A DNA stretch of 64,000 nt from a virus (taxonomy: Duplodnaviria; Caudoviricetes). Position numbers and translations under genes: made by a program. Location of the stretch: IMG/VR virus record IMGVR_UViG_3300028048_000047, positions 32,001-96,000 of that record; one strand, written 5' to 3'. This document shows positions 1-32,999 of this stretch, in pieces. Every line of letters begins with the position of its first letter. Positions within the stretch are counted from its first letter, which is position 1. The notes under the pieces are model-generated. The model had not been told where the DNA came from. It saw only the letters and a list, made by a program, of their open reading frames with translations, and did not search any database.

Positions 1-668
1 AAGGTTTCATTACAGAACAAAAATTCACAGATACCGAAGTTGAAGTGACAGTAAGTGGAATGACAAAAACATTGGAAATGAAATATAAATTTGATTTCAA
101 ACAAATGTATCGGTCTGAAATAATAAATCAAGTTATATTAACTGCTGGATTAAAACCAGTATTAAATTTTGAAGGTTTAGAAGATGATATAATTGATTTC
201 AAAAATTATTCTGAATCAGATAGCAGTAGTGGAAGTACTGGTGATGTTAAAATTAAGTCAACAGGTAGTAAAGTTTTAGATGAAGTTGTTAAAAAAGCAA
301 TTGCAGGAAAAACAGATGATTTAGAAAAAGCAAAAGCAATATTTGAAGCATTTAAAGAACATTGTTATTATGAAGGTTATTCAGATTGTCAGTATCCTAA
401 TGATATTGAGAAAGCATGGAATGATGCACATATAAATTGTGCTGATGGAGCGAATGTTTTATGTGCAATGTATCTTGCCGCAGGTTTAAATTCCGTTATT
501 GTCCATGTTAATAATCATTATATTGTTAAAACTGAAATTAATGGTAAAAGTTATCTTTCAGACAGTTCAGGGGCAGAAGGAGCGCATAATACAAGACCAT
601 TTGGGGAGGTATTCACCTATGATGGTGTTACAAGTGGTTCTGTTGTGGGTACACATTTAGATTATTAA
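1..668 (+). CDS. 5'-truncated tail/baseplate-hub protein with C-terminal transglutaminase-like (pseudomurein endoisopeptidase-like) Cys-protease domain
   Basis: Frame is open from the window start (nt 3). KAKAIF..Y..Y, NCADGAN, NHY and LSDSS give a Cys-His-Asp triad typical of transglutaminase-like/Pei enzymes; tail-module context. Confidence 0.7.
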   Translation, partial: GFITEQKFTDTEVEVTVSGMTKTLEMKYKFDFKQMYRSEIINQVILTAGLKPVLNFEGLEDDIIDFKNYSESDSSSGSTGDVKIKSTGSKVLDEVVKKAIAGKTDDLEKAKAIFEAFKEHCYYEGYSDCQYPNDIEKAWNDAHINCADGANVLCAMYLAAGLNSVIVHVNNHYIVKTEINGKSYLSDSSGAEGAHNTRPFGEVFTYDGVTSGSVVGTHLDY

Positions 669-3229: not shown

Positions 3230-3709
3230 ATGGTGTTACCAGTTGATACTGAGAGTTATGCTTATTTGTTTTATAAGAATTTGAATGAAGATGTTAAATT
3301 AAAGTCTGATGCTATGGGTAGATGGGATATTGATTTTGATTTTGAGCATGATGATTGGTATAATGTTACTGGTTTTGAGAGTGTATTTAATGCTTGTGTA
3401 ATTGCTATAATGACTCGTTTTGATGAATTAGAGTTTATGGATTTGTATGATGATTTCGGTTGTCGGATTCATGAATTGATTAAAGCAAATAAAAGTAGGA
3501 ATGTTAAGTATCATATGGAGTTATTTGTTACGGAAGTATTGGAGAATATGAGAAGAATAAAAAGAGTTAATTGGGTTAATATTACGGATAATCCTAATGG
3601 TAAATTATATAGTTATGTGATTACTTTTAATGTTTCTTGTATGTTGGATGAAGATTATGAGTTAGAGGATGTGGATACTACAATTATTGAGGAGAGTTTC
3701 TTAATATGA
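3230..3709 (+). CDS. Baseplate wedge/sheath initiator (gp25/gp46-like)
   Basis: IMTRFDE...YDDFGCRIHELI motif; directly upstream of and overlapping the J-like gene; RBS GGAG. Confidence 0.7.
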   Translation: MVLPVDTESYAYLFYKNLNEDVKLKSDAMGRWDIDFDFEHDDWYNVTGFESVFNACVIAIMTRFDELEFMDLYDDFGCRIHELIKANKSRNVKYHMELFVTEVLENMRRIKRVNWVNITDNPNGKLYSYVITFNVSCMLDEDYELEDVDTTIIEESFLI

Positions 3710-5049
3710 GTTATATTTATGATGAAGAGGGTAATAAGAAGTATTATCAAGTAAATTATATTCAGAAGTATTATGAAGAATTGTTTTATGGGTTATTGGA
3801 AGAGGCTTATGATGTTAGTCTTATTAGTCATAATGAAAATTTCATTGATTATGTTAAATCAAGACAAGATATTAGTAGTTTTTATGTTATGACTTTGTCA
3901 ATTCTTGCTGATGAGATTGAAGATGTTTATTTTGATATAACTGATGTATATTACTCTGATAAAATCCAATATGCTATTGGGTCTGATTTAGATGATATTG
4001 GTTTGAGGGTTGGTTGTTTAAGACCTCGTGCTACTAAGGCAGGTGTTACTTTATCATTTAAGTTAAGTGTTCCTTTTGATGTTCCTATTGAGATTAATAC
4101 TCCTATTACTGTTTCTAATGGTAAGGGTGTTGAGTATGTTACTACTGGGACTTTGAGGTTTCCTATTGGGGAAACAGTATCTGAGGTTTTTGCTTTGTCA
4201 AGTAAAACTGGTAGAGGTTTTCGTGTTGAGGCAGATACTTTGCATATTATTGAAGAGGAAGTTGTTCTTGAAGATGGTACTATTATAGGTTTGTCAGTTA
4301 CAAATCCTAAGTCAAGTAGTGGGGGTAATGAAAAGTATAATGATGAGGAATATCGTGAATTATTACTTGATTGGGTTAAGAATAATATTAAAGGTAGTAA
4401 GGAGGCTTATGAAAGATATTTTGCTAATTTAGATGGTGTTGATTCATATAAACTCATACCTAATTGGAATGGGGTTACTGGTACTGTTAAGGTGGTTGTT
4501 GACCCTGGTGATTCTGAGCAATTGAATAATATTTATGATGATTTGAATGGTGTGGTTACTCAGTTTTCAGAAGATATAACTTTGTTCCCTCCTACTTTTG
4601 TACCGATTGATATATATGCTGTGTGTGATGTTGATATAGATGTGATTAATCCTTACAGTAGCTCTGAGAAAGAGGCGATTAAAAGTAGGATTAAGGAAGC
4701 AATTATTAAATATATTGAAGGGGATTTGTATTCTGAGAATAGGAAAGAACATCTTGGTTTAACAATTGGTGAAGATTTCATACCATATAAACTGGGTGTA
4801 TACTTATCACAAAAAATCCCTGAACTAAAAAACATTGGATTCAAATATCCTTTAAATCCAATCACAATAACTGATGAAGAAATGTGTACAAAAAATGAAA
4901 TAACAATTGAAATGAATTCTGTACCAACTTATAAAGAAATAGATTTAGATTCTGATGGTAATGCGGATATACTTGGTGTGGATTTGAATAATGATTCAAT
5001 GGCAGACCTTTATAGGAATAAGAATAATGTATCTCATGGCTTAAAATGA
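3706..5049 (+). CDS. Baseplate J/gp47-like protein
   Basis: AIGSDLDDIG..G..R..AT, V.NP..SSGG.E...DEEYR, GVDSYKLIP..G.GTVKVVV motifs. Confidence 0.85.
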   Translation: MSYIYDEEGNKKYYQVNYIQKYYEELFYGLLEEAYDVSLISHNENFIDYVKSRQDISSFYVMTLSILADEIEDVYFDITDVYYSDKIQYAIGSDLDDIGLRVGCLRPRATKAGVTLSFKLSVPFDVPIEINTPITVSNGKGVEYVTTGTLRFPIGETVSEVFALSSKTGRGFRVEADTLHIIEEEVVLEDGTIIGLSVTNPKSSSGGNEKYNDEEYRELLLDWVKNNIKGSKEAYERYFANLDGVDSYKLIPNWNGVTGTVKVVVDPGDSEQLNNIYDDLNGVVTQFSEDITLFPPTFVPIDIYAVCDVDIDVINPYSSSEKEAIKSRIKEAIIKYIEGDLYSENRKEHLGLTIGEDFIPYKLGVYLSQKIPELKNIGFKYPLNPITITDEEMCTKNEITIEMNSVPTYKEIDLDSDGNADILGVDLNNDSMADLYRNKNNVSHGLK

Positions 5050-27142: not shown

Positions 27143-28921
27143 ATGGTTAAGAGATTTGGTTATTGGGTTTTCGGTAAAGATATGAATAATGTTAAACTGG
27201 AAACATTACAGAAAAATGGTGTAACAGACATATTCTTAAACTACTATGCTTTTACTGCACATGGTAAAAGTAAAGTAGTGGCATGGATTAAAAAAGCAAA
27301 AAAGTATGGTATTAAAACTCATATATGGGTTCAATGTTTCTTCAATGGGGATTGGGTTAATCCAGTTAATATGGATTTAAATAAGAAACGGAAAGAAATT
27401 AAAGGATATGCTAATACTGAGGGAGTGTATGGTATACATTTAGATTATTTAAGGTATCCTGGTAATGCTTATAAGACAAGTAATGGTACTGCTACTATTA
27501 CTAAATTTGTACAGAATGTAAGGAAAGACAATCCAAAGGTCTTGTTGACTTGTGCAGTTATGCCTGAGGAAGACTGTAAAAAGTATTATGGTCAAGATAT
27601 TAGTGCATTAGCGAAAACAGTTGACCGTATAATCCCAATGCAGTACAAAGGTAATTATGAAGCAGGAACATCATGGTTGAAATCAACTACAAAATATTTT
27701 AGTGGTAAGGCGAAGATTTGGAGTGGTTTACAATCTTATAAATCTGATGATGATACTACTGTCTTATCAAGTAAAGAATTGTTAAGTGATGTTAAGACTT
27801 GTTTTAATAATGGTGCAAGAGGTGTTGTATTGTTCCGTTATGGTCTTGCTCCATCATTGAATTTAAAATCATATACTACTGAGAAGAAAACAACAACTAC
27901 TGCTAAATCAAGTACATCTACAACTTCCACTACAAAGAAAACAAATACAACAACCACTACTGCCTCTACTACAAAGAAAACAACAACTGTCGCTTCTATA
28001 AGTTATAAAACAATTGTCAGTAAAGCGAAAGTGATTGTGGAAAATGCAGAAAAGAACCATAAAAGTGTAGGTAAGAAATGGTCTTATTATATTGCAAAAG
28101 CAATACAAAATCCTAATAAAAGTATTAAAAAAGTAACATTTGATTACGCTTCAAAACCAATGGGTGATACATTTAATAATGTTAAAATTAGTAAAACCGA
28201 TTATATCGCATGTGCTAAACAATTAACTACTTTTGTGGAAAAAAAGAAACGATTAAGAAACTATTTGGACTTTGGTAAAAAACAAATAATAGTCAGGGAT
28301 TATACTTATACTCTTGCAAGAATATTAATTTATTATGATACAAATAAGAAATTACCAAGTAGTTCAAAAGTTAATACTGGTGTGTGGAAGAAACCTGAAC
28401 CACTTCACGATTATTTGACAAGTGAGGGTTGTAGTGGTATGGGTCAATGTAATGGTTATTATTGTGCTTGTAATAGTTTACAACAAATGTTTTATCGTTT
28501 AACTGGTATAAAAGTATCTGAATCAACAATTGCAGGTTGGGCAGGCACTACAAGTTCAGGCACAGACCATCCAGGAATTAATACGGCTGTTACTCAATTT
28601 AATAGGAAATATAATAAGAATGTTGTTATTGAATGGTATAATTTTAGTGATTTAGGAAGTAATGAAAGTGCAAGATGGACTAAAATAAGTAATTTCATTA
28701 AAAAAGGCGCAGTTTTCTTCCATTTGTTATACAGGAATCAATGGGGGCATTATGAGCCAATTAAAAGCGTTGGAGATTATTTAAAGATTTTAAACAGTCT
28801 TGGAGATAGTTGTGGTGATGGAACATACTGTGGTTACATTGAATCCCGTAGTAAAGGAGAACAAATAGACTACATTAATGGAATAAGTCAAAAGTCAGTC
28901 GCATTTTTATATAACAAATAA
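27143..28921 (+). CDS. Endolysin: glycoside-hydrolase-like TIM barrel + Thr/Lys linker + pseudomurein-binding repeats + C39-like peptidase
   Basis: GIHLDYLRYP; ARILIYY..NKKLP and AKQL..FVEK..RL.NY repeats; Q.NGYYCAC / GHYE / LNS catalytic pattern. Confidence 0.8.
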   Translation: MVKRFGYWVFGKDMNNVKLETLQKNGVTDIFLNYYAFTAHGKSKVVAWIKKAKKYGIKTHIWVQCFFNGDWVNPVNMDLNKKRKEIKGYANTEGVYGIHLDYLRYPGNAYKTSNGTATITKFVQNVRKDNPKVLLTCAVMPEEDCKKYYGQDISALAKTVDRIIPMQYKGNYEAGTSWLKSTTKYFSGKAKIWSGLQSYKSDDDTTVLSSKELLSDVKTCFNNGARGVVLFRYGLAPSLNLKSYTTEKKTTTTAKSSTSTTSTTKKTNTTTTTASTTKKTTTVASISYKTIVSKAKVIVENAEKNHKSVGKKWSYYIAKAIQNPNKSIKKVTFDYASKPMGDTFNNVKISKTDYIACAKQLTTFVEKKKRLRNYLDFGKKQIIVRDYTYTLARILIYYDTNKKLPSSSKVNTGVWKKPEPLHDYLTSEGCSGMGQCNGYYCACNSLQQMFYRLTGIKVSESTIAGWAGTTSSGTDHPGINTAVTQFNRKYNKNVVIEWYNFSDLGSNESARWTKISNFIKKGAVFFHLLYRNQWGHYEPIKSVGDYLKILNSLGDSCGDGTYCGYIESRSKGEQIDYINGISQKSVAFLYNK

Positions 28922-28941: not shown

Positions 28942-29160
28942 ATGGGTTTTTTAGATAAAATAAAAAGTTTATTCAAATCTAAAAAAGAAATCGTAAACAA
29001 AGAAACATTAAGAAAAGAACAAGAAATTATCGATGAACTATATGAAAAAGATGGTTTAACTGATGAAGTATTAGACAAACAAGTCGCTTTAAACATGAAA
29101 AGGAATAAATATGACATTCCTGATGAAAAGAATTTAAACAAAGATGGATGGAGTCAATAA
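28942..29160 (+). CDS. Hypothetical protein
   Basis: GGAGG RBS; 72 aa. Confidence 0.6.
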   Translation: MGFLDKIKSLFKSKKEIVNKETLRKEQEIIDELYEKDGLTDEVLDKQVALNMKRNKYDIPDEKNLNKDGWSQ

Positions 29161-29214
29161 TATTAACTATTATTGATTTTATTCTTTATCTTTTTTTTAT
29201 GGGGGATATTTATA

Positions 29215-29950
29215 ATGTTATTTAAAAGATTTACAGAAATTATATTATGTGTACTAATTATAATCATAGGACTTGAATTTATAAATTTAATTTTAAATTG
29301 GAACATTAGTTTTTATTTAATTATAGGGTTCTGTTTAGTTATTGTTTTTGGTTTAGGTGCAGGATTTTGCAGATATAAAATTAGTGACACCTTATGTGAA
29401 AAATAATATTGTTTAAGGATTTGGTTTTTTATGGATATTGATTTTAATGAATTTTTAAGGATAATGTCATGTATTTTGATTGTTTTATTGGTTTTTCAAG
29501 GTCTTGATTATATAGTTGGATTTGGTATAAATAATTATTTATTTATTTTATTCTGTATTGCTTTTGCTTTTACAATGGGTAGTATTTATCATAATATTAT
29601 TATTGCTCGGAATAGAAAGGAGCGTAGAAAGTTTGAAAAAGATATTCGTGGTGTTTTAGAGAATATTCGTAAGGACGGTTTAACCGATGACAATATTGAT
29701 GAATTGGAATTAATTCTTGCAGATACTGTGAAAGGTGATGAAGAGGAGGTTATTGATGAAAATTAATTATGAGTTGTTCTGTAAAATTATGCTTGTTCTT
29801 CTTATTATTGTTTTTATTGCAGAAGGTTTAAATTGGATTTTTAAGTGTAATTTTAATCATCATTTGTTTCATATATTTTGGGTGTTGTTCAGTTTTAATA
29901 TGGGTATTTATATTGGTAAAAGGTGTGTTAATTATGAAGAAGATAATTAG
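29215..29950 (+). CDS. Three tandem paralogous 2-TM proteins (29215-29406, 29431-29766, 29756-29950); holin candidates
   Basis: Shared F..I...L....GL..I......L.......F.(L/M)G pattern; directly after the endolysin. Confidence 0.55.
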
Positions 29951-30375: not shown

Positions 30376-30783
30376 ATGGCAAGGTATCCTATAAGAGTTA
30401 CTCATAGTACTATGAAAAGATTAAAAAGTTTAGCGATTTTACCTAATGAATCTTATGATAAGATTTTGAAAAGAATTCTTGATGCAAAAGTTGGTGAAGA
30501 TGAAATCGTTTATATGATTGATGATTTGAAGAGTTTATGTAAATTAAAATGTGTTATTGATTTTGGAGAGTTGGATAAAAATATATTATTTTTTGAATAT
30601 GAAGATAGTTATAGGTCTTCTTCTCCTCCTTTATTATCTTCAAATAGTTTAGTTAGTTCTGAGGAGTATTCAGATTTCCTTCACAGGTTAAGGGGAATTA
30701 ATGATTTGATTAGTGTATTGTCTTTGTTAGGTCGGAGGGAGTACACTATTGTTAATAATTTGAGATTGATTCGTTTGAGTTAA
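30376..30783 (+). CDS. RHH/antitoxin-like DNA-binding protein (paralog of 38269-38676)
   Basis: IRV...T..RLK.LA..PNES(Y/F)..I..R.LDAK. Confidence 0.6.
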   Translation: MARYPIRVTHSTMKRLKSLAILPNESYDKILKRILDAKVGEDEIVYMIDDLKSLCKLKCVIDFGELDKNILFFEYEDSYRSSSPPLLSSNSLVSSEEYSDFLHRLRGINDLISVLSLLGRREYTIVNNLRLIRLS

Positions 30784-31334: not shown

Positions 31335-31460
31335 ATTTATATAGTAGTTATATGTATATGTAGTATTGTTCTTTTACTATCGTTTAAGTTGTGTCTTTTA
31401 GTTATCATAGATGAAAAAAAGTACAGGGATACTTTGTTTTAGTGTTCTTGTATTTTTTTT
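31335..31460 (+). ncRNA. TATA box plus candidate small RNA B ending in a strong hairpin
   Basis: ATTTATATAGTAG; stem AAAAAAGTACAGGGATACT/AGTGTTCTTGTATTTTTT plus T-run. Confidence 0.45.
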
Positions 31461-31554
31461 ATTATTATTATTTTTTTAGAAATGTTTTTATATTTTTATA
31501 GATTTTGGATATATATGTTTTGTATTGTTATAGTGTTTTAATTCAATAATATAT

Positions 31555-31581
31555 ATTTAAAACGAAACATTTATATAGTAG
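31555..31581 (+). promoter_or_regulatory. Strong BRE/TATA promoter; 23 bp identical to 34196-34218
   Basis: ATTTAAAACGAAACATTTATATA. Confidence 0.75.
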
Positions 31582-31629
31582 TAATATTATACTATAATAT
31601 AACACTAAACAAAAGGAGATAACTAAAAA

Positions 31630-32999
31630 ATGATACAAACAAAATTAACATTAAATCCAATATCATGGAAACAAATAAACTATCATAAAGAAGTTGAAAA
31701 ATTAATGTACCCAGACGGATTCCACAAAACAAAAAATCATGGATTGTGGAAATTAAGAACAAAACTAAACAACAGAGAATGGGAAGCAATAAAACACTTA
31801 TTTTCATTTTATGATAAAACAAGTGTACAAAAAAACATAATAAAAAACATGAAATATTATGGATGGGCAACAGTAAATCCTGTGGAAGTAATTAAAATAT
31901 TATATCAAATAAGAAATACATAAATGGAGGAAAATAATATGTCATGGTATGATTTATGGAGTAACTGGTTAAATACAACAATAAGAGTTTTAAAATCAGA
32001 ACATAATTCTAATTGTGTAGGATATTACTACTTTAAATCAAATAGTAATAGGAATAAATCAAAATATAAATTTGGTACTATTCCTCATTTTACACACAAA
32101 TACAAATGGAAAAGAACACATAGAGGTAAAAGAGGTCTTATCACAAATGGTTACTATAAAGGAAAACCACAATAAAAGATAAAAATTAGGAGGAAATTAT
32201 AATGGTTTTTTATACTAAATTAGATTTACATAAAGAAATAAGGTTATATGGTGAAAAATTTAATTTGGATTTGGACGGTAAAACAATAAGAGAAGGTATA
32301 AATATTATTGTTGAATCATGTCCTAAGTTACATTCAGATGAAGAATTAATAATTTTAACTAAGAATAACCTGAAAGCAATAGAAGAAGAATATGGATTTA
32401 AAGCATTGAGGTTATTTTATTATGATACAATAAAACAAGATTTACTCCAATCTTTTACTGGGGAAGATGCACTTCAAAGGAAGTATTTTAAATTACTAAA
32501 ACACTTGAAAGAGTTTCATAATACTAAAATAAAAGAATTGGAATTAACATTGGATGTGTACAGATATTATACATTATTAGAAAAAGTGTTCAATGAGGAA
32601 TATGGTGAATTGAAATATTATGATAATAGGTTGTATAGTTTGATGAAATCAATACATATATGTTATTATGATGAACAGGTAATTGAATCTTTATATGATT
32701 TTTTATTTTCTGAATTAAGTATGAGTGGAGATAAATATTATATTAAAAAGGATTTACATGATGTTGATGTTCTGAAAATGTTATATGAGCATGTTGCAGA
32801 AGAAAATTTTGATAATAGTGTTGTGCATGGTGTGAGGTTGTTTGAGGATTATGATGGTTATGGTAATGATTATTTTCTTCATGATTATGAAGAGTCATGG
32901 TATGATGAGAATGGAGTATATCATTGTAAAATGTGGGAAAAACCTTCATCAATTGAGGATTATGTAAAAATAGGGTTACCAAATCAAGATGGGGATTAA
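31630..32999 (+). CDS. Operon of three hypothetical proteins (31630-31923, 31924-32175, 32202-32999)
   Basis: GGAG/GGAGG RBSs. Confidence 0.6.

What the first reader, a model, noticed from the sequence alone, without database searches (positions are those of the whole stretch)
27143..28921. Endolysin with two catalytic domains: candidate pseudomurein glycosidase fused to a C39-type peptidase
Seen: an N-terminal ~240-aa TIM-barrel-like domain (TDIFL, GIKTHIW, GIHLDYLRYP, IIPMQY), a Thr/Lys linker, pseudomurein-binding-like repeats, and a C-terminal Cys/His/Asn peptidase. Established: the classical methanogen-virus lysins PeiW, PeiP and PeiR are peptidases, and pseudomurein glycan resists lysozyme. 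Inference: a viral enzyme cutting both the glycan backbone and the peptide cross-link; of interest as an anti-methanogen agent.
Basis: partly seen in the sequence, partly recalled or inferred. Interest (0 to 1): 0.75.

Follow-up and report, generated by a model that had tools for sequence, protein, structure and literature searches.

The report
Two-enzyme wall lysin of methanogen virus
A 196-kb tailed virus of gut methanogens (Methanobrevibacter) encodes a lysis protein that joins a sugar-cutting-type barrel, a wall-binding module and a papain-like cysteine hydrolase, which makes the barrel family a concrete but untested candidate for the unknown enzyme that cuts the sugar backbone of the methanogen cell wall.

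Summary
Window 27143-28921 (+) is one 592-aa ORF with every motif at the stated place.

Residues 1-243 fold as a complete (beta/alpha)8 barrel (pLDDT 96.8). The barrel matches Pfam DUF4015, 'putative glycosyl hydrolase', above threshold. Its nearest solved folds are Cwp19, PgaB GH153 and GH18 enzymes. It lacks the GH18 catalytic Glu, so it is not GH18. Fourteen residues on the barrel's catalytic face, including D101, R104, E142 and Y168, are invariant in 66 relatives.

A Thr/Lys linker and two sub-threshold pseudomurein-binding repeats follow. Residues 426-592 are a papain-fold 'C39-like' Gln/Cys/His/Asn domain. It matches PDB 22oc at E 4e-33 and PeiR by fold.

The same barrel is fused elsewhere to a PeiW-type C71 peptidase in a provirus lysin. 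It is also fused to a transglutaminase-core protease in a secreted ~1500-aa chromosomal protein that is common in Methanobrevibacter.

Best reading: a holin-dependent, two-enzyme pseudomurein lysin. No activity has been shown. The only assayed C39-like relative did not cleave pseudomurein peptide analogues.

The family is large and carries only generic database names. I found no paper that discusses it. This scan reported a similar barrel-plus-peptidase lysin on other DNA (e1-3288238).

Verdict: new variant of a known kind, moderately high interest.

The parts
27143..28921 (+). Whole lysin gene: 592 aa, with no signal peptide or transmembrane segment
   Evidence: The N-terminus aligns with the N-termini of the homologues.
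27143..27871 (+). N-terminal DUF4015-family (beta/alpha)8 barrel, aa 1-243. The candidate catalytic residues are D101 (27443-27445) at the end of strand 4 and E142 (27566-27568) after strand 5, together with R104 and the M166-x-Y168 motif.
   Evidence: Pfam DUF4015: E 1e-8, 35.1 bits against a cut-off of 27. AF2 model: pLDDT 96.8, pTM 0.93, eight strands. Fold matches: Cwp19 Z 22.4, BpsB/PgaB Z 22.1, GH18 Z 19-21. Invariant residues.
27872..27997 (+). Thr/Lys/Ser-rich low-complexity linker, aa 244-285. Its length varies among homologues and it is absent from many.
27998..28402 (+). Pseudomurein-binding-repeat (PMBR) region, aa 286-420. Two repeats are recognisable at 28178-28255 and 28295-28369. 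The first repeat is degenerate because of a 12-residue deletion relative to most homologues.
   Evidence: Pfam PMBR hits are below the cut-off here. The aligned region carries PF09373 in most homologues. It is modelled as helix-strand units with pLDDT above 90.
28418..28918 (+). C-terminal C39-like papain-fold cysteine hydrolase, aa 426-592. Key residues: Q435 (28445-28447), C441 (28463-28465), H527, H536-Y537 (28748-28753), N551 (28793-28795), and the Cys pair C557/C563.
   Evidence: PDB 22oc: E 4.3e-33 by sequence and E 1.2e-52 with the family profile. Foldseek: 22oc 6e-16, PeiR 8z4h 1.7e-7, then ComA, PCAT1 and LahT C39 domains. The residues are invariant. Their spacing equals that reported for A0A126R2S0 and PeiR (PMC13642728).
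28942..29160 (+). Conserved small soluble ORF (72 aa) directly after the lysin gene. Its function is unknown.
   Evidence: Present directly after the lysin gene in four of the five related loci examined (L002, L003, L007, L008) and about 0.7 kb downstream, after one intervening ORF, in L004. Identity is 33-46%, with a shared G-x-TDE-hLE-x-Q motif. No Pfam or PHROG match.
29173..29950 (+). Three tandem small membrane-protein ORFs (29173-29406, 29431-29766, 29735-29950), proposed as holin candidates. Assigning this role is inference.
   Evidence: Hydropathy shows two or three hydrophobic segments in each, and the middle ORF has a highly charged tail. They are weakly paralogous at 23-28% identity. 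They match no PHROG or Pfam family and are absent from the related loci.

Best explanation
This is the lysis enzyme (endolysin) of a large tailed Methanobrevibacter virus, built from three modules. It has no signal peptide, so it should accumulate in the cytoplasm late in infection and reach the wall through membrane lesions. Those lesions are probably made by the three small membrane proteins encoded just downstream. The central PMBR repeats would hold the protein on pseudomurein. The C-terminal papain-fold domain (Gln435 oxyanion residue, Cys441 nucleophile, His536 base, Asn551 third member, as in papain) would cut a peptide or amide bond of the pseudomurein stem or cross-link, by analogy with PeiR. 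The N-terminal DUF4015 barrel would hydrolyse a wall glycan. The most likely target is the GlcNAc/GalNAc-beta-1,3-N-acetyltalosaminuronic acid backbone of pseudomurein. Its active site would be built from Asp101, Glu142, Arg104, Tyr168 and a ring of invariant aromatic residues. Shown here: the ORF, the three modules, their folds, the residue conservation, the lack of a signal peptide, the gene position, and the recurring fusions. Inferred: both enzymatic activities, the substrates, the exit role, and the holin role of the neighbouring ORFs.
For: 1. GH-type barrel. DUF4015 scores above the gathering cut-off. The AF2 model has pLDDT 96.8. Foldseek and VIA-align place it nearest Cwp19, PgaB/BpsB GH153, SleL and GH18 chitinases, which are enzymes of GlcNAc-containing polymers, including peptidoglycan. 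Of 28 diverse members, 28 match DUF4015, 16 match GH18 and 6 match GHL10.
2. Conserved active-site face. W62, D101, Y102, R104, E142, Y149, G150, Q151, M166, Y168, W178, Y199, F231 and R232 are identical in 66 of 66 archaeal and viral relatives. All lie at the C-terminal ends of barrel strands. D101, R104, E142, M166 and Y168 also align with the bacterial DUF4015 structure 4S1A.
3. Recurrent fusion with pseudomurein peptidases. There are three forms. The first is barrel-PMBR-C39-like, found here, in three complete or near-complete viral genomes and in two MAG contigs. The second is barrel-PMBR-Peptidase_C71 (E 2.3e-11) at the end of a provirus. The third is signal peptide-Ig repeats-barrel-PMBR-Transglut_core in chromosomal genes, one of them in a housekeeping neighbourhood of a complete genome, with at least 266 clusters.
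4. Distribution. The barrel subfamily is found almost only in Methanobrevibacter and other Methanobacteriaceae. It is present in 272 of 295 sampled genomes of that phylum.
5. C-terminal domain. It matches 22oc at E 4e-33 and has a PeiR and C39 fold. Q, C, H, H-Y and N are invariant. The PMBR plus C39-like pair also exists alone as a ~310-aa protein in at least 318 clusters, including complete virus vir080.
6. Lysis-cassette position. The gene follows the baseplate and fibre-like genes and is followed by small membrane proteins. The viral forms lack the signal peptide that the cellular forms carry.
Against: - No DUF4015 member has a demonstrated substrate, and only one held paper even mentions the family.
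- The GH18 catalytic Glu position is Leu103 (alignment), so the general acid is only guessed to be E142.
- PMBR co-occurrence could reflect anchoring rather than substrate choice.
- The only assayed member of the C39-like family, A0A126R2S0, did not cleave E-gamma-A-pNA or E-gamma-T-pNA. Its authors report a very weak beta-galactosidase-type activity instead (PMC13642728).
- The PMBR hits are below threshold in this protein, and the first repeat is degenerate.
- The holin candidates match no known family and are not conserved in related viruses.
- The virus has a second wall-hydrolase candidate, a 424-aa Transglut_core protein. This leaves it unsettled which protein serves entry and which serves exit.
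Confidence: 0.55

Rival explanations
1. The barrel is an active glycosidase, but its substrate is another envelope glycan of Methanobrevibacter rather than the pseudomurein backbone. Candidates are a wall-linked neutral polysaccharide, a capsule-like glycan or a glycoprotein glycan. The barrel would clear access for the peptidase domain.
For: The nearest folds include exopolysaccharide hydrolases (PgaB/BpsB GH153) as well as peptidoglycan enzymes. Many cellular relatives are Ig-repeat, adhesin-like surface proteins, in which PMBR may only anchor the protein. Pseudomurein sacculi are reported to carry galactose and other neutral sugars (cited in PMC13642728).
Against: The barrel is repeatedly fused to three different peptidase types whose only known or inferred substrate is pseudomurein. 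It retains the GH18-like Asp and Met-x-Tyr elements that fit a 2-acetamido sugar. It is near-universal in the sampled genomes of the host phylum (272 of 295).
Confidence: 0.2
2. The protein is carried on the virion and opens the wall locally during entry. The 424-aa transglutaminase-core protein, or another gene, would then be the true endolysin.
For: The gene lies directly after a run of fibre-like and Ig-like genes. Four related virus genomes also each carry two wall-hydrolase candidates. In psiM-type viruses the lysis enzyme is the transglutaminase-fold Pei (PMC2989375, PMC10791045).
Against: The Transglut_core gene sits inside the tail and baseplate block, just upstream of baseplate J. The lysin is the last gene of the late block, next to small membrane proteins, and lies at the provirus edge in L078. 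That is the usual endolysin position. No tail-attachment domain is detectable in it.
Confidence: 0.12
3. The C39-like domain is not a peptidase. As proposed for A0A126R2S0, it would be a glycan-cleaving enzyme, so the protein would carry two carbohydrate-active domains, or one real one.
For: PMC13642728 reports pNP-beta-galactoside hydrolysis and no cleavage of peptide analogues by a family member. The depositors titled PDB 22oc 'P210 CD lyase'.
Against: The reported rate is very low (about 16 uM/h). Mutating the Cys/His-type residues only reduced it, and lactose was not cleaved. The complete Gln/Cys/His/Asn set is invariant, and it is the papain arrangement (established knowledge). The nearest functionally defined fold relative is the endoisopeptidase PeiR. 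The domain occupies the same slot as C71 in the swapped lysin.
Confidence: 0.08
4. The barrel is catalytically dead and serves as an extra carbohydrate-binding module, like chitinase-like lectins.
For: The GH18 catalytic Glu is missing. PgaB's C-terminal barrel was also once taken to be binding-only (from memory).
Against: An acidic pair (D101, E142) plus R104 is strictly invariant across 66 divergent sequences and in bacterial DUF4015. A separate PMBR binding module is already present.
Confidence: 0.05

Closest known systems
PeiR, the lytic enzyme of Methanobrevibacter ruminantium provirus phi-mru (C39 pseudomurein endoisopeptidase, PDB 8Z4H)
   Same: It is a lysin of a Methanobrevibacter virus with a wall-binding module followed by a papain-fold C39-type domain. 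The Gln, Cys, His and His-Tyr positions are equivalent. Foldseek E 1.7e-7 against the C-terminal half (PMC13642728).
   Different: There is no detectable sequence match. The third triad member is Asn instead of Asp. This protein has an extra disulfide loop, and PeiR has no glycosidase-type domain.
C39-like family: PDB 22oc ('P210 CD') and A0A126R2S0 (PMC13642728)
   Same: The C-terminal domain is a true sequence homologue (E 4e-33, 37% identity in the fold alignment). It has the same Q-C-H-N set and the same Cys-x5-Cys loop 3. The PMBR plus C39-like pair is the common short form.
   Different: Those proteins lack the N-terminal barrel. Their natural substrate is unknown, and I found no paper on P210.
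PeiW/PeiP (peptidase family C71, transglutaminase fold) of psiM100 and psiM1/psiM2
   Same: They are pseudomurein lysins of methanogen viruses with PMBR repeats. A C71 domain replaces the C39-like domain behind the same barrel and PMBR in provirus lysins L010 and L011.
   Different: The catalytic fold is unrelated, and this ORF has no C71 domain.
Pfam DUF4015 (PF13200; structure 4S1A) and the neighbouring GH-like barrels: Cwp19 (GHL10), PgaB/BpsB GH153, and SleL and other GH18 enzymes
   Same: The same (beta/alpha)8 fold. The shared motif is D-Y-x-R-[FY]-P ... E ... P-M-x-Y. The substrates of the neighbours are GlcNAc-containing polymers, including peptidoglycan.
   Different: This is a compact 243-aa barrel. 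The GH18 DxxDxDxE acid is absent. No DUF4015 member has been characterised, and the archaeal subfamily is only 20-29% identical to bacterial members.
Two-catalytic-domain endolysins and autolysins of Gram-positive bacteria, such as staphylococcal Atl (amidase plus glucosaminidase), LysK and streptococcal B30-type lysins
   Same: The same design logic: one peptide- or amide-cutting domain, one glycan-cutting domain and a wall-binding module in a single protein (PMC7679415 and PMC8144678, seen only as titles and abstracts in the search listing, not read; the rest is general knowledge).
   Different: All the domains are unrelated in sequence, and the target here is archaeal pseudomurein, not murein.
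Chromosomal Methanobrevibacter proteins annotated 'cysteine protease', 'transglutaminase domain-containing' or 'PMBR-containing' (~1200-1500 aa)
   Same: The same barrel subfamily (48-56% identity), PMBR repeats and a Cys-protease domain in one polypeptide. They are sister to the viral barrel clade.
   Different: They are secreted (signal peptide), carry long Ig-repeat N-terminal regions, and use Transglut_core instead of C39-like. They are presumably wall-remodelling enzymes or autolysins rather than virus lysins.

Membership tests
Pfam DUF4015 (PF13200, putative glycosyl hydrolase) | The profile HMM score exceeds the curated gathering cut-off | tested here: met
   35.1 bits against 27, E 1e-8. 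28 of 28 diverse relatives also match. The genome scan gives 30.2 bits, over the cut-off.
Pfam DUF4015 (PF13200, putative glycosyl hydrolase) | A (beta/alpha)8 barrel with the conserved D-Y-x-R-[FY]-P, E and P-M-x-Y motifs shared with structure 4S1A | tested here: met
   The model has eight strands. The alignments to 4S1A conserve D101, R104, E142, M166 and Y168.
Glycoside hydrolase (functional class) | Demonstrated hydrolysis of a glycosidic bond | not testable with these tools
GH18 | The DxxDxDxE motif, with the catalytic Glu at the end of strand 4 | tested here: not met
   In the profile alignment to the GH18 enzyme SleL/YaaH (4s3k), D101 aligns with the penultimate Asp, but the catalytic Glu position is Leu103. 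This protein has no PF00704 hit, although 16 of 28 relatives have weak ones.
GH18 | The strand-6 Met-x-Tyr motif that supports substrate-assisted catalysis | tested here: met
   M166 and Y168 are invariant and align with the PMTY motif of SleL.
Peptidase C39 (PF03412) | A match to the family profile | tested here: not met
   No hit in the protein or in the whole virus genome.
Peptidase C39 (PF03412) | A papain-like C39 fold with a Gln oxyanion residue and a Cys/His dyad | tested here: met
   Foldseek matches PeiR 8z4h, ComA 3k8u, PCAT1 and LahT 6mpz at E 1.7e-7 to 2.4e-4. Q435, C441 and H536 are invariant.
Peptidase C39 (PF03412) | Asp or Glu as the third triad residue | tested here: not met
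   The position is the invariant Asn551, as reported for A0A126R2S0 (PMC13642728). Asn is the papain arrangement.
C39-like family (22oc / A0A126R2S0) | Significant sequence similarity across the catalytic domain | tested here: met
   E 4.3e-33 for the single sequence and 1.2e-52 for the profile.
C39-like family (22oc / A0A126R2S0) | Loop 3 with a Cys-x5-Cys pair and flanking Asp and Tyr residues | tested here: met
   D555, C557, Y562, C563 and Y565 have the same spacing as D314, C316, Y321, C322 and Y324 in the paper.
PMBR (PF09373, pseudomurein-binding repeat) | Profile score above the cut-off, and at least three repeats for good binding (PMC3124540) | tested here: inconclusive
   Two repeats score about 17 bits each, 18.2 bits in all against a cut-off of 24.9. 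The homologous region passes the cut-off in most relatives. The first repeat is shortened here.
Holin-dependent endolysin | No secretion signal, a late-gene position at the end of the structural block, and adjacent small membrane proteins | tested here: met
   The holin function of the neighbouring ORFs is itself untested.
Peptidase C71 (PeiW/PeiP) | A match to PF12386 in this ORF | tested here: not met
   No hit in this ORF. The only weak C71 and Transglut_core signal in the virus lies in another gene.

The most novel reading that the evidence does not exclude
The DUF4015-type barrel found here is the long-missing pseudomurein glycan hydrolase. It would be an enzyme class used by Methanobrevibacter cells (in secreted ~1500-aa wall proteins) and, after capture, by their viruses. 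It would be routinely paired in one polypeptide with any of three unrelated cysteine peptidases to cut both the sugar strands and the peptide links of the archaeal wall.
Probability: 0.42. Interest if true: 0.8.

Novelty: new variant of a known kind. Interest (0 to 1): 0.6.

Why it matters
All characterised pseudomurein-degrading enzymes (PeiW, PeiP, PeiR) cut peptide bonds. A 2024 review still calls archaeal wall hydrolases 'very mysterious' (PMC10791045). I found no paper on any enzyme that cuts the pseudomurein glycan. I also found no paper linking DUF4015 to methanogens.

A glycan-cutting module would give several things:
- a first handle on how pseudomurein is remodelled during growth and division;
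- a tool for making protoplasts and for wall analysis in Methanobrevibacter, which is genetically hard to work with;
- a second, possibly synergistic activity for enzyme-based control of rumen methanogens, a field that so far uses PeiR alone (PMC6189367, PMC8963448).

The hypothesis is directly testable with one recombinant protein and purified sacculi. The interchangeable peptidase partners (C39-like, C71, transglutaminase core) also provide natural controls.

Tried and rejected
- **GH18 membership** was considered and rejected. The catalytic Glu is absent.
- **C39 family membership by sequence** was rejected. Only the fold and the catalytic residues fit.
- **NCBIfam and PHROGs** added nothing beyond a weak 'endolysin' PHROG hit for aa 435-479.
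- **The holin candidates and the small conserved ORF** match no Pfam or PHROG family.
- **Literature on 'P210' (PDB 22oc)** was not found. The paper on C39 endoisopeptidases (Int J Biol Macromol 2026) is not held. The Medvedeva et al. compendium is not held either and was seen only in reference lists.
- **The genome-contig scan with the diverse barrel alignment** failed because the alignment had no conserved stretch long enough to search with. I repeated it with the closer alignment, which biases that scan towards close relatives.
- **The phylum-wide genome search** returned no taxon labels. I could not test whether the barrel is missing from methanogens that lack pseudomurein. Among 14 control genomes, DUF4015 rings only in Bacteroides thetaiotaomicron.
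- **BFVD** holds no close viral relative of the barrel, only generic GH barrels.
- **No complex prediction** was run, because no binding claim is made.
Full report
**What is there.** Window 27143-28921 (+) is a single 592-aa ORF. The window is bases 32001-96000 of an IMG/VR virus record of 195,936 bp that CheckV rates as complete. G+C is about 27% and nearly all genes are on the + strand. Upstream lie a baseplate-J gene (3706-5049; Pfam E 2.6e-14, PHROG 'baseplate wedge' E 8e-34) and a run of very large ORFs and ORFs with Ig-like domains. The gene therefore closes the tail and fibre block of a tailed virus.

**N-terminal domain: fold.** Pfam places aa 69-181 in DUF4015 ('putative glycosyl hydrolase domain') at E 1e-8, above the curated cut-off. 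I built an alignment of 28 diverse relatives found by an exhaustive HMMER search. That search gave 543 representative clusters at E <= 1e-3 and 191 at E <= 1e-30. With this alignment AlphaFold2 gives a model with pLDDT 96.8 and pTM 0.93. It has eight strand-helix units, which is a compact (beta/alpha)8 barrel of 243 residues. Foldseek's best solved matches are the PgaB/BpsB GH153 domain, the spore-cortex-lytic GH18 enzyme SleL, and Cwp19 of C. difficile (E about 1e-9). A Foldseek-independent search gives Cwp19 at Z 22.4 (242 residues aligned, rmsd 3.1), BpsB at Z 22.1, and GH18 chitinases at Z 19-21. TIM barrels resemble each other broadly, so this establishes the fold and the neighbourhood, not the substrate. 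At the sequence level, 28 of 28 relatives match DUF4015, 16 of 28 also match GH18 and 6 of 28 match GHL10.

**N-terminal domain: active site.** In 66 archaeal and viral relatives taken from genomes, fourteen residues are identical in every sequence: W62, D101, Y102, R104, E142, Y149, G150, Q151, M166, Y168, W178, Y199, F231 and R232. In the model they sit at the C-terminal ends of the strands, which is the catalytic face of such barrels. D101, R104, E142, M166 and Y168 also align with the bacterial DUF4015 structure 4S1A. In the profile alignment to the GH18 enzyme SleL, D101 matches the Asp that precedes the catalytic Glu, and M166-x-Y168 matches the GH18 strand-6 motif. The catalytic Glu position itself is Leu103. 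So this is not a GH18 enzyme. It keeps elements that in GH18 serve 2-acetamido sugars. The acid is probably E142, which is inference.

**Middle region.** A variable Thr/Lys/Ser linker (aa 244-285) is followed by a region homologous to pseudomurein-binding repeats. In this protein only two repeats are detectable, and both are below Pfam's cut-off. Most homologues carry PF09373 there. This protein and its nearest relatives have lost 12 residues of the first repeat.

**C-terminal domain.** Residues 426-586 match PDB 22oc ('P210', released 2026) at E 4.3e-33, and at E 1.2e-52 with the family profile. A model of aa 286-592 (pLDDT 94.6) finds 22oc first. Next come the pseudomurein endoisopeptidase PeiR (8z4h, E 1.7e-7) and then the classical C39 domains of ComA, PCAT1 and LahT. 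Pfam's C39 model does not match.

Q435, C441, H527, H536-Y537 and N551 are invariant. Their spacing equals that given for PeiR (Q84, C90, H162... H181-Y182) and for the 'C39-like' protein A0A126R2S0 (Q194, C200, H283, H292-Y293). The C557-x5-C563 loop corresponds to that protein's loop 3 (PMC13642728). That paper reports no cleavage of the pseudomurein analogues E-gamma-A-pNA and E-gamma-T-pNA. It reports a very slow hydrolysis of pNP-beta-galactoside that survives mutation of the catalytic-type residues. I regard the glycosidase claim as weak, but the negative peptide result is real evidence against a PeiR-like specificity. A Cys/His/Asn triad is the papain arrangement (established knowledge) and is not a sign of lost peptidase function.

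**Relatives and architectures.** Full-length homologues are numerous: 437 clusters, down to about 46% identity. One is named by NCBI 'putative glycoside hydrolase [Methanobrevibacter sp.]'. The same three-module protein is found in three other complete or near-complete viral genomes of 81-139 kb and in two Methanobrevibacter MAG contigs. The PMBR plus C39-like half also exists alone as a ~310-aa protein in at least 318 clusters. That includes the complete human-gut virus vir080, where it is annotated only as a hypothetical protein.

Three further observations bear on function:
- In provirus lysins L010 and L011 the same barrel and PMBR are followed by a Peptidase_C71 (PeiW/PeiP-type) domain instead of the C39-like one (E 2.3e-11). 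That gene sits at the edge of a block of ORFans next to cellular genes and, as in the window, is followed by a DUF7557 gene.
- Chromosomal genes that recur across Methanobrevibacter genomes encode signal peptide-Ig repeats-barrel-PMBR x2-Transglut_core proteins of about 1200-1500 aa. In the complete genome of Methanobrevibacter sp. DSM 116169 this gene lies among thermosome, tRNA-synthetase and ribosomal-protein genes.
- Termite-gut lineages have signal peptide-PMBR-barrel proteins.

The barrel subfamily was found almost only in Methanobrevibacter and other Methanobacteriaceae. Bacterial hits are only 20-29% identical. It is present in 272 of 295 sampled genomes of that phylum, often in several copies. 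In a maximum-likelihood tree of 67 barrels, the viral-type barrels form one clade (SH-aLRT 100) next to the long cellular proteins of gut and rumen species. The C71-bearing forms are nested among the C39-like-bearing ones (midpoint root only). This fits one exchange between host and virus followed by swapping of the peptidase module. The direction of that exchange is not established.

**How it most likely works.** The viral forms start directly with strand 1 of the barrel and lack the signal peptide of the cellular forms. This is the usual difference between endolysins and autolysins. Directly downstream are a small conserved soluble ORF and three weakly paralogous small membrane proteins. I propose the membrane proteins as holins, although they match no family and are not conserved in related viruses. 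I therefore read the protein as a holin-dependent endolysin. PMBR would dock it on pseudomurein, the C39-like domain would cut a peptide or amide bond, and the barrel would cut a wall glycan, most probably the beta-1,3-linked GlcNAc/GalNAc-N-acetyltalosaminuronic acid backbone (structure as described in PMC10791045).

The strongest arguments for a wall substrate are the barrel's repeated fusion to three unrelated cysteine-peptidase types tied to pseudomurein, its strict active-site conservation, and its restriction to the host lineage. The weakest points are the absence of any biochemistry for DUF4015 and the negative peptide assay for a C39-like relative. PMBR could also be only an anchor.

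**Second wall hydrolase.** The virus also encodes a 424-aa protein with a Transglut_core domain (E 1.4e-6, above the cut-off) and weak C71 and PHROG 'pseudomurein endoisopeptidase' signals. It lies just upstream of the baseplate genes and ends at window 668. All four related viruses examined also have such a gene besides the C39-like lysin. A division of labour between entry and exit is plausible. The positions favour the transglutaminase-core protein as tail-associated and the three-module protein as the endolysin, but this is not proven.

**Novelty.** The family is already in databases under generic names. Authors of the C39-like paper noted in passing that 7 of 144 homologues were annotated as putative glycoside hydrolases. 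I found no paper that discusses the barrel, its fusions or a pseudomurein glycosidase. Reviews list only endoisopeptidases. An earlier follow-up in this scan reached a similar reading for a different barrel-plus-PeiR-like lysin on other DNA (e1-3288238). Two-enzyme lysins are commonplace in phages of Gram-positive bacteria, so the design is not surprising. The candidate activity on pseudomurein glycan would be new.

Noticed in passing
window 1-668 (the full gene is L075:595-1869, i.e. G000 31394-32668): A 424-aa protein just upstream of the baseplate genes carries a Transglut_core domain (E 1.4e-6, above the cut-off). It also has weak Peptidase_C71 and PHROG 'pseudomurein endoisopeptidase' hits. 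This makes it a second, probably tail-associated, wall-hydrolase candidate. Four related virus genomes each have one too.
   Followed up: partly
window 28942-29160: A 72-aa soluble ORF lies directly after the lysin gene. It is conserved (33-46% identity, shared G-x-TDE-hLE-x-Q motif) directly behind the lysin gene in related loci L002, L003, L007 and L008, and about 0.7 kb downstream in L004. A 61-aa ORF sits in the same place in vir080. It matches no family, and it may be a lysis regulator or a partner of the lysin.
   Followed up: partly
window 29173-29950: Three tandem, weakly paralogous small membrane proteins (77, 111 and 71 aa). The middle one has a long charged tail. They are holin-like by position and topology, match no known family, and are absent from the related loci.
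   Followed up: partly
window 30376-30783 and L078:13398-13793: A weak DUF7557 gene lies a few small ORFs downstream of the lysin. This is seen both in this virus and in the Methanobrevibacter provirus that carries the barrel-PMBR-C71 lysin, so the end of the late block is syntenic.
   Followed up: no
whole record G000 (195,936 bp; the window is 32001-96000): The virus record is 196 kb and CheckV rates it complete. Close homologues of the lysin sit on contigs of 170-215 kb. From memory this exceeds the largest cultivated archaeal tailed viruses (about 144 kb), so this may be a lineage of unusually large methanogen viruses.
   Followed up: no
L023 / L081:8001-12521 (Methanobrevibacter sp. DSM 116169 chromosome): A conserved chromosomal gene of about 1500 aa: signal peptide, Ig-like repeats, DUF4015 barrel, two PMBR blocks and Transglut_core. 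It lies in a housekeeping neighbourhood, and relatives occur in most of the genomes sampled. It is a candidate cellular pseudomurein-remodelling enzyme that seems not to have been studied.
   Followed up: partly
L005:5419-7476 and L006:5401-6717 (viral contigs): Other viral proteins combine an Ig-like N-terminal part with the same barrel but have no PMBR or peptidase. Their barrels fall inside the viral clade of the tree.
   Followed up: no
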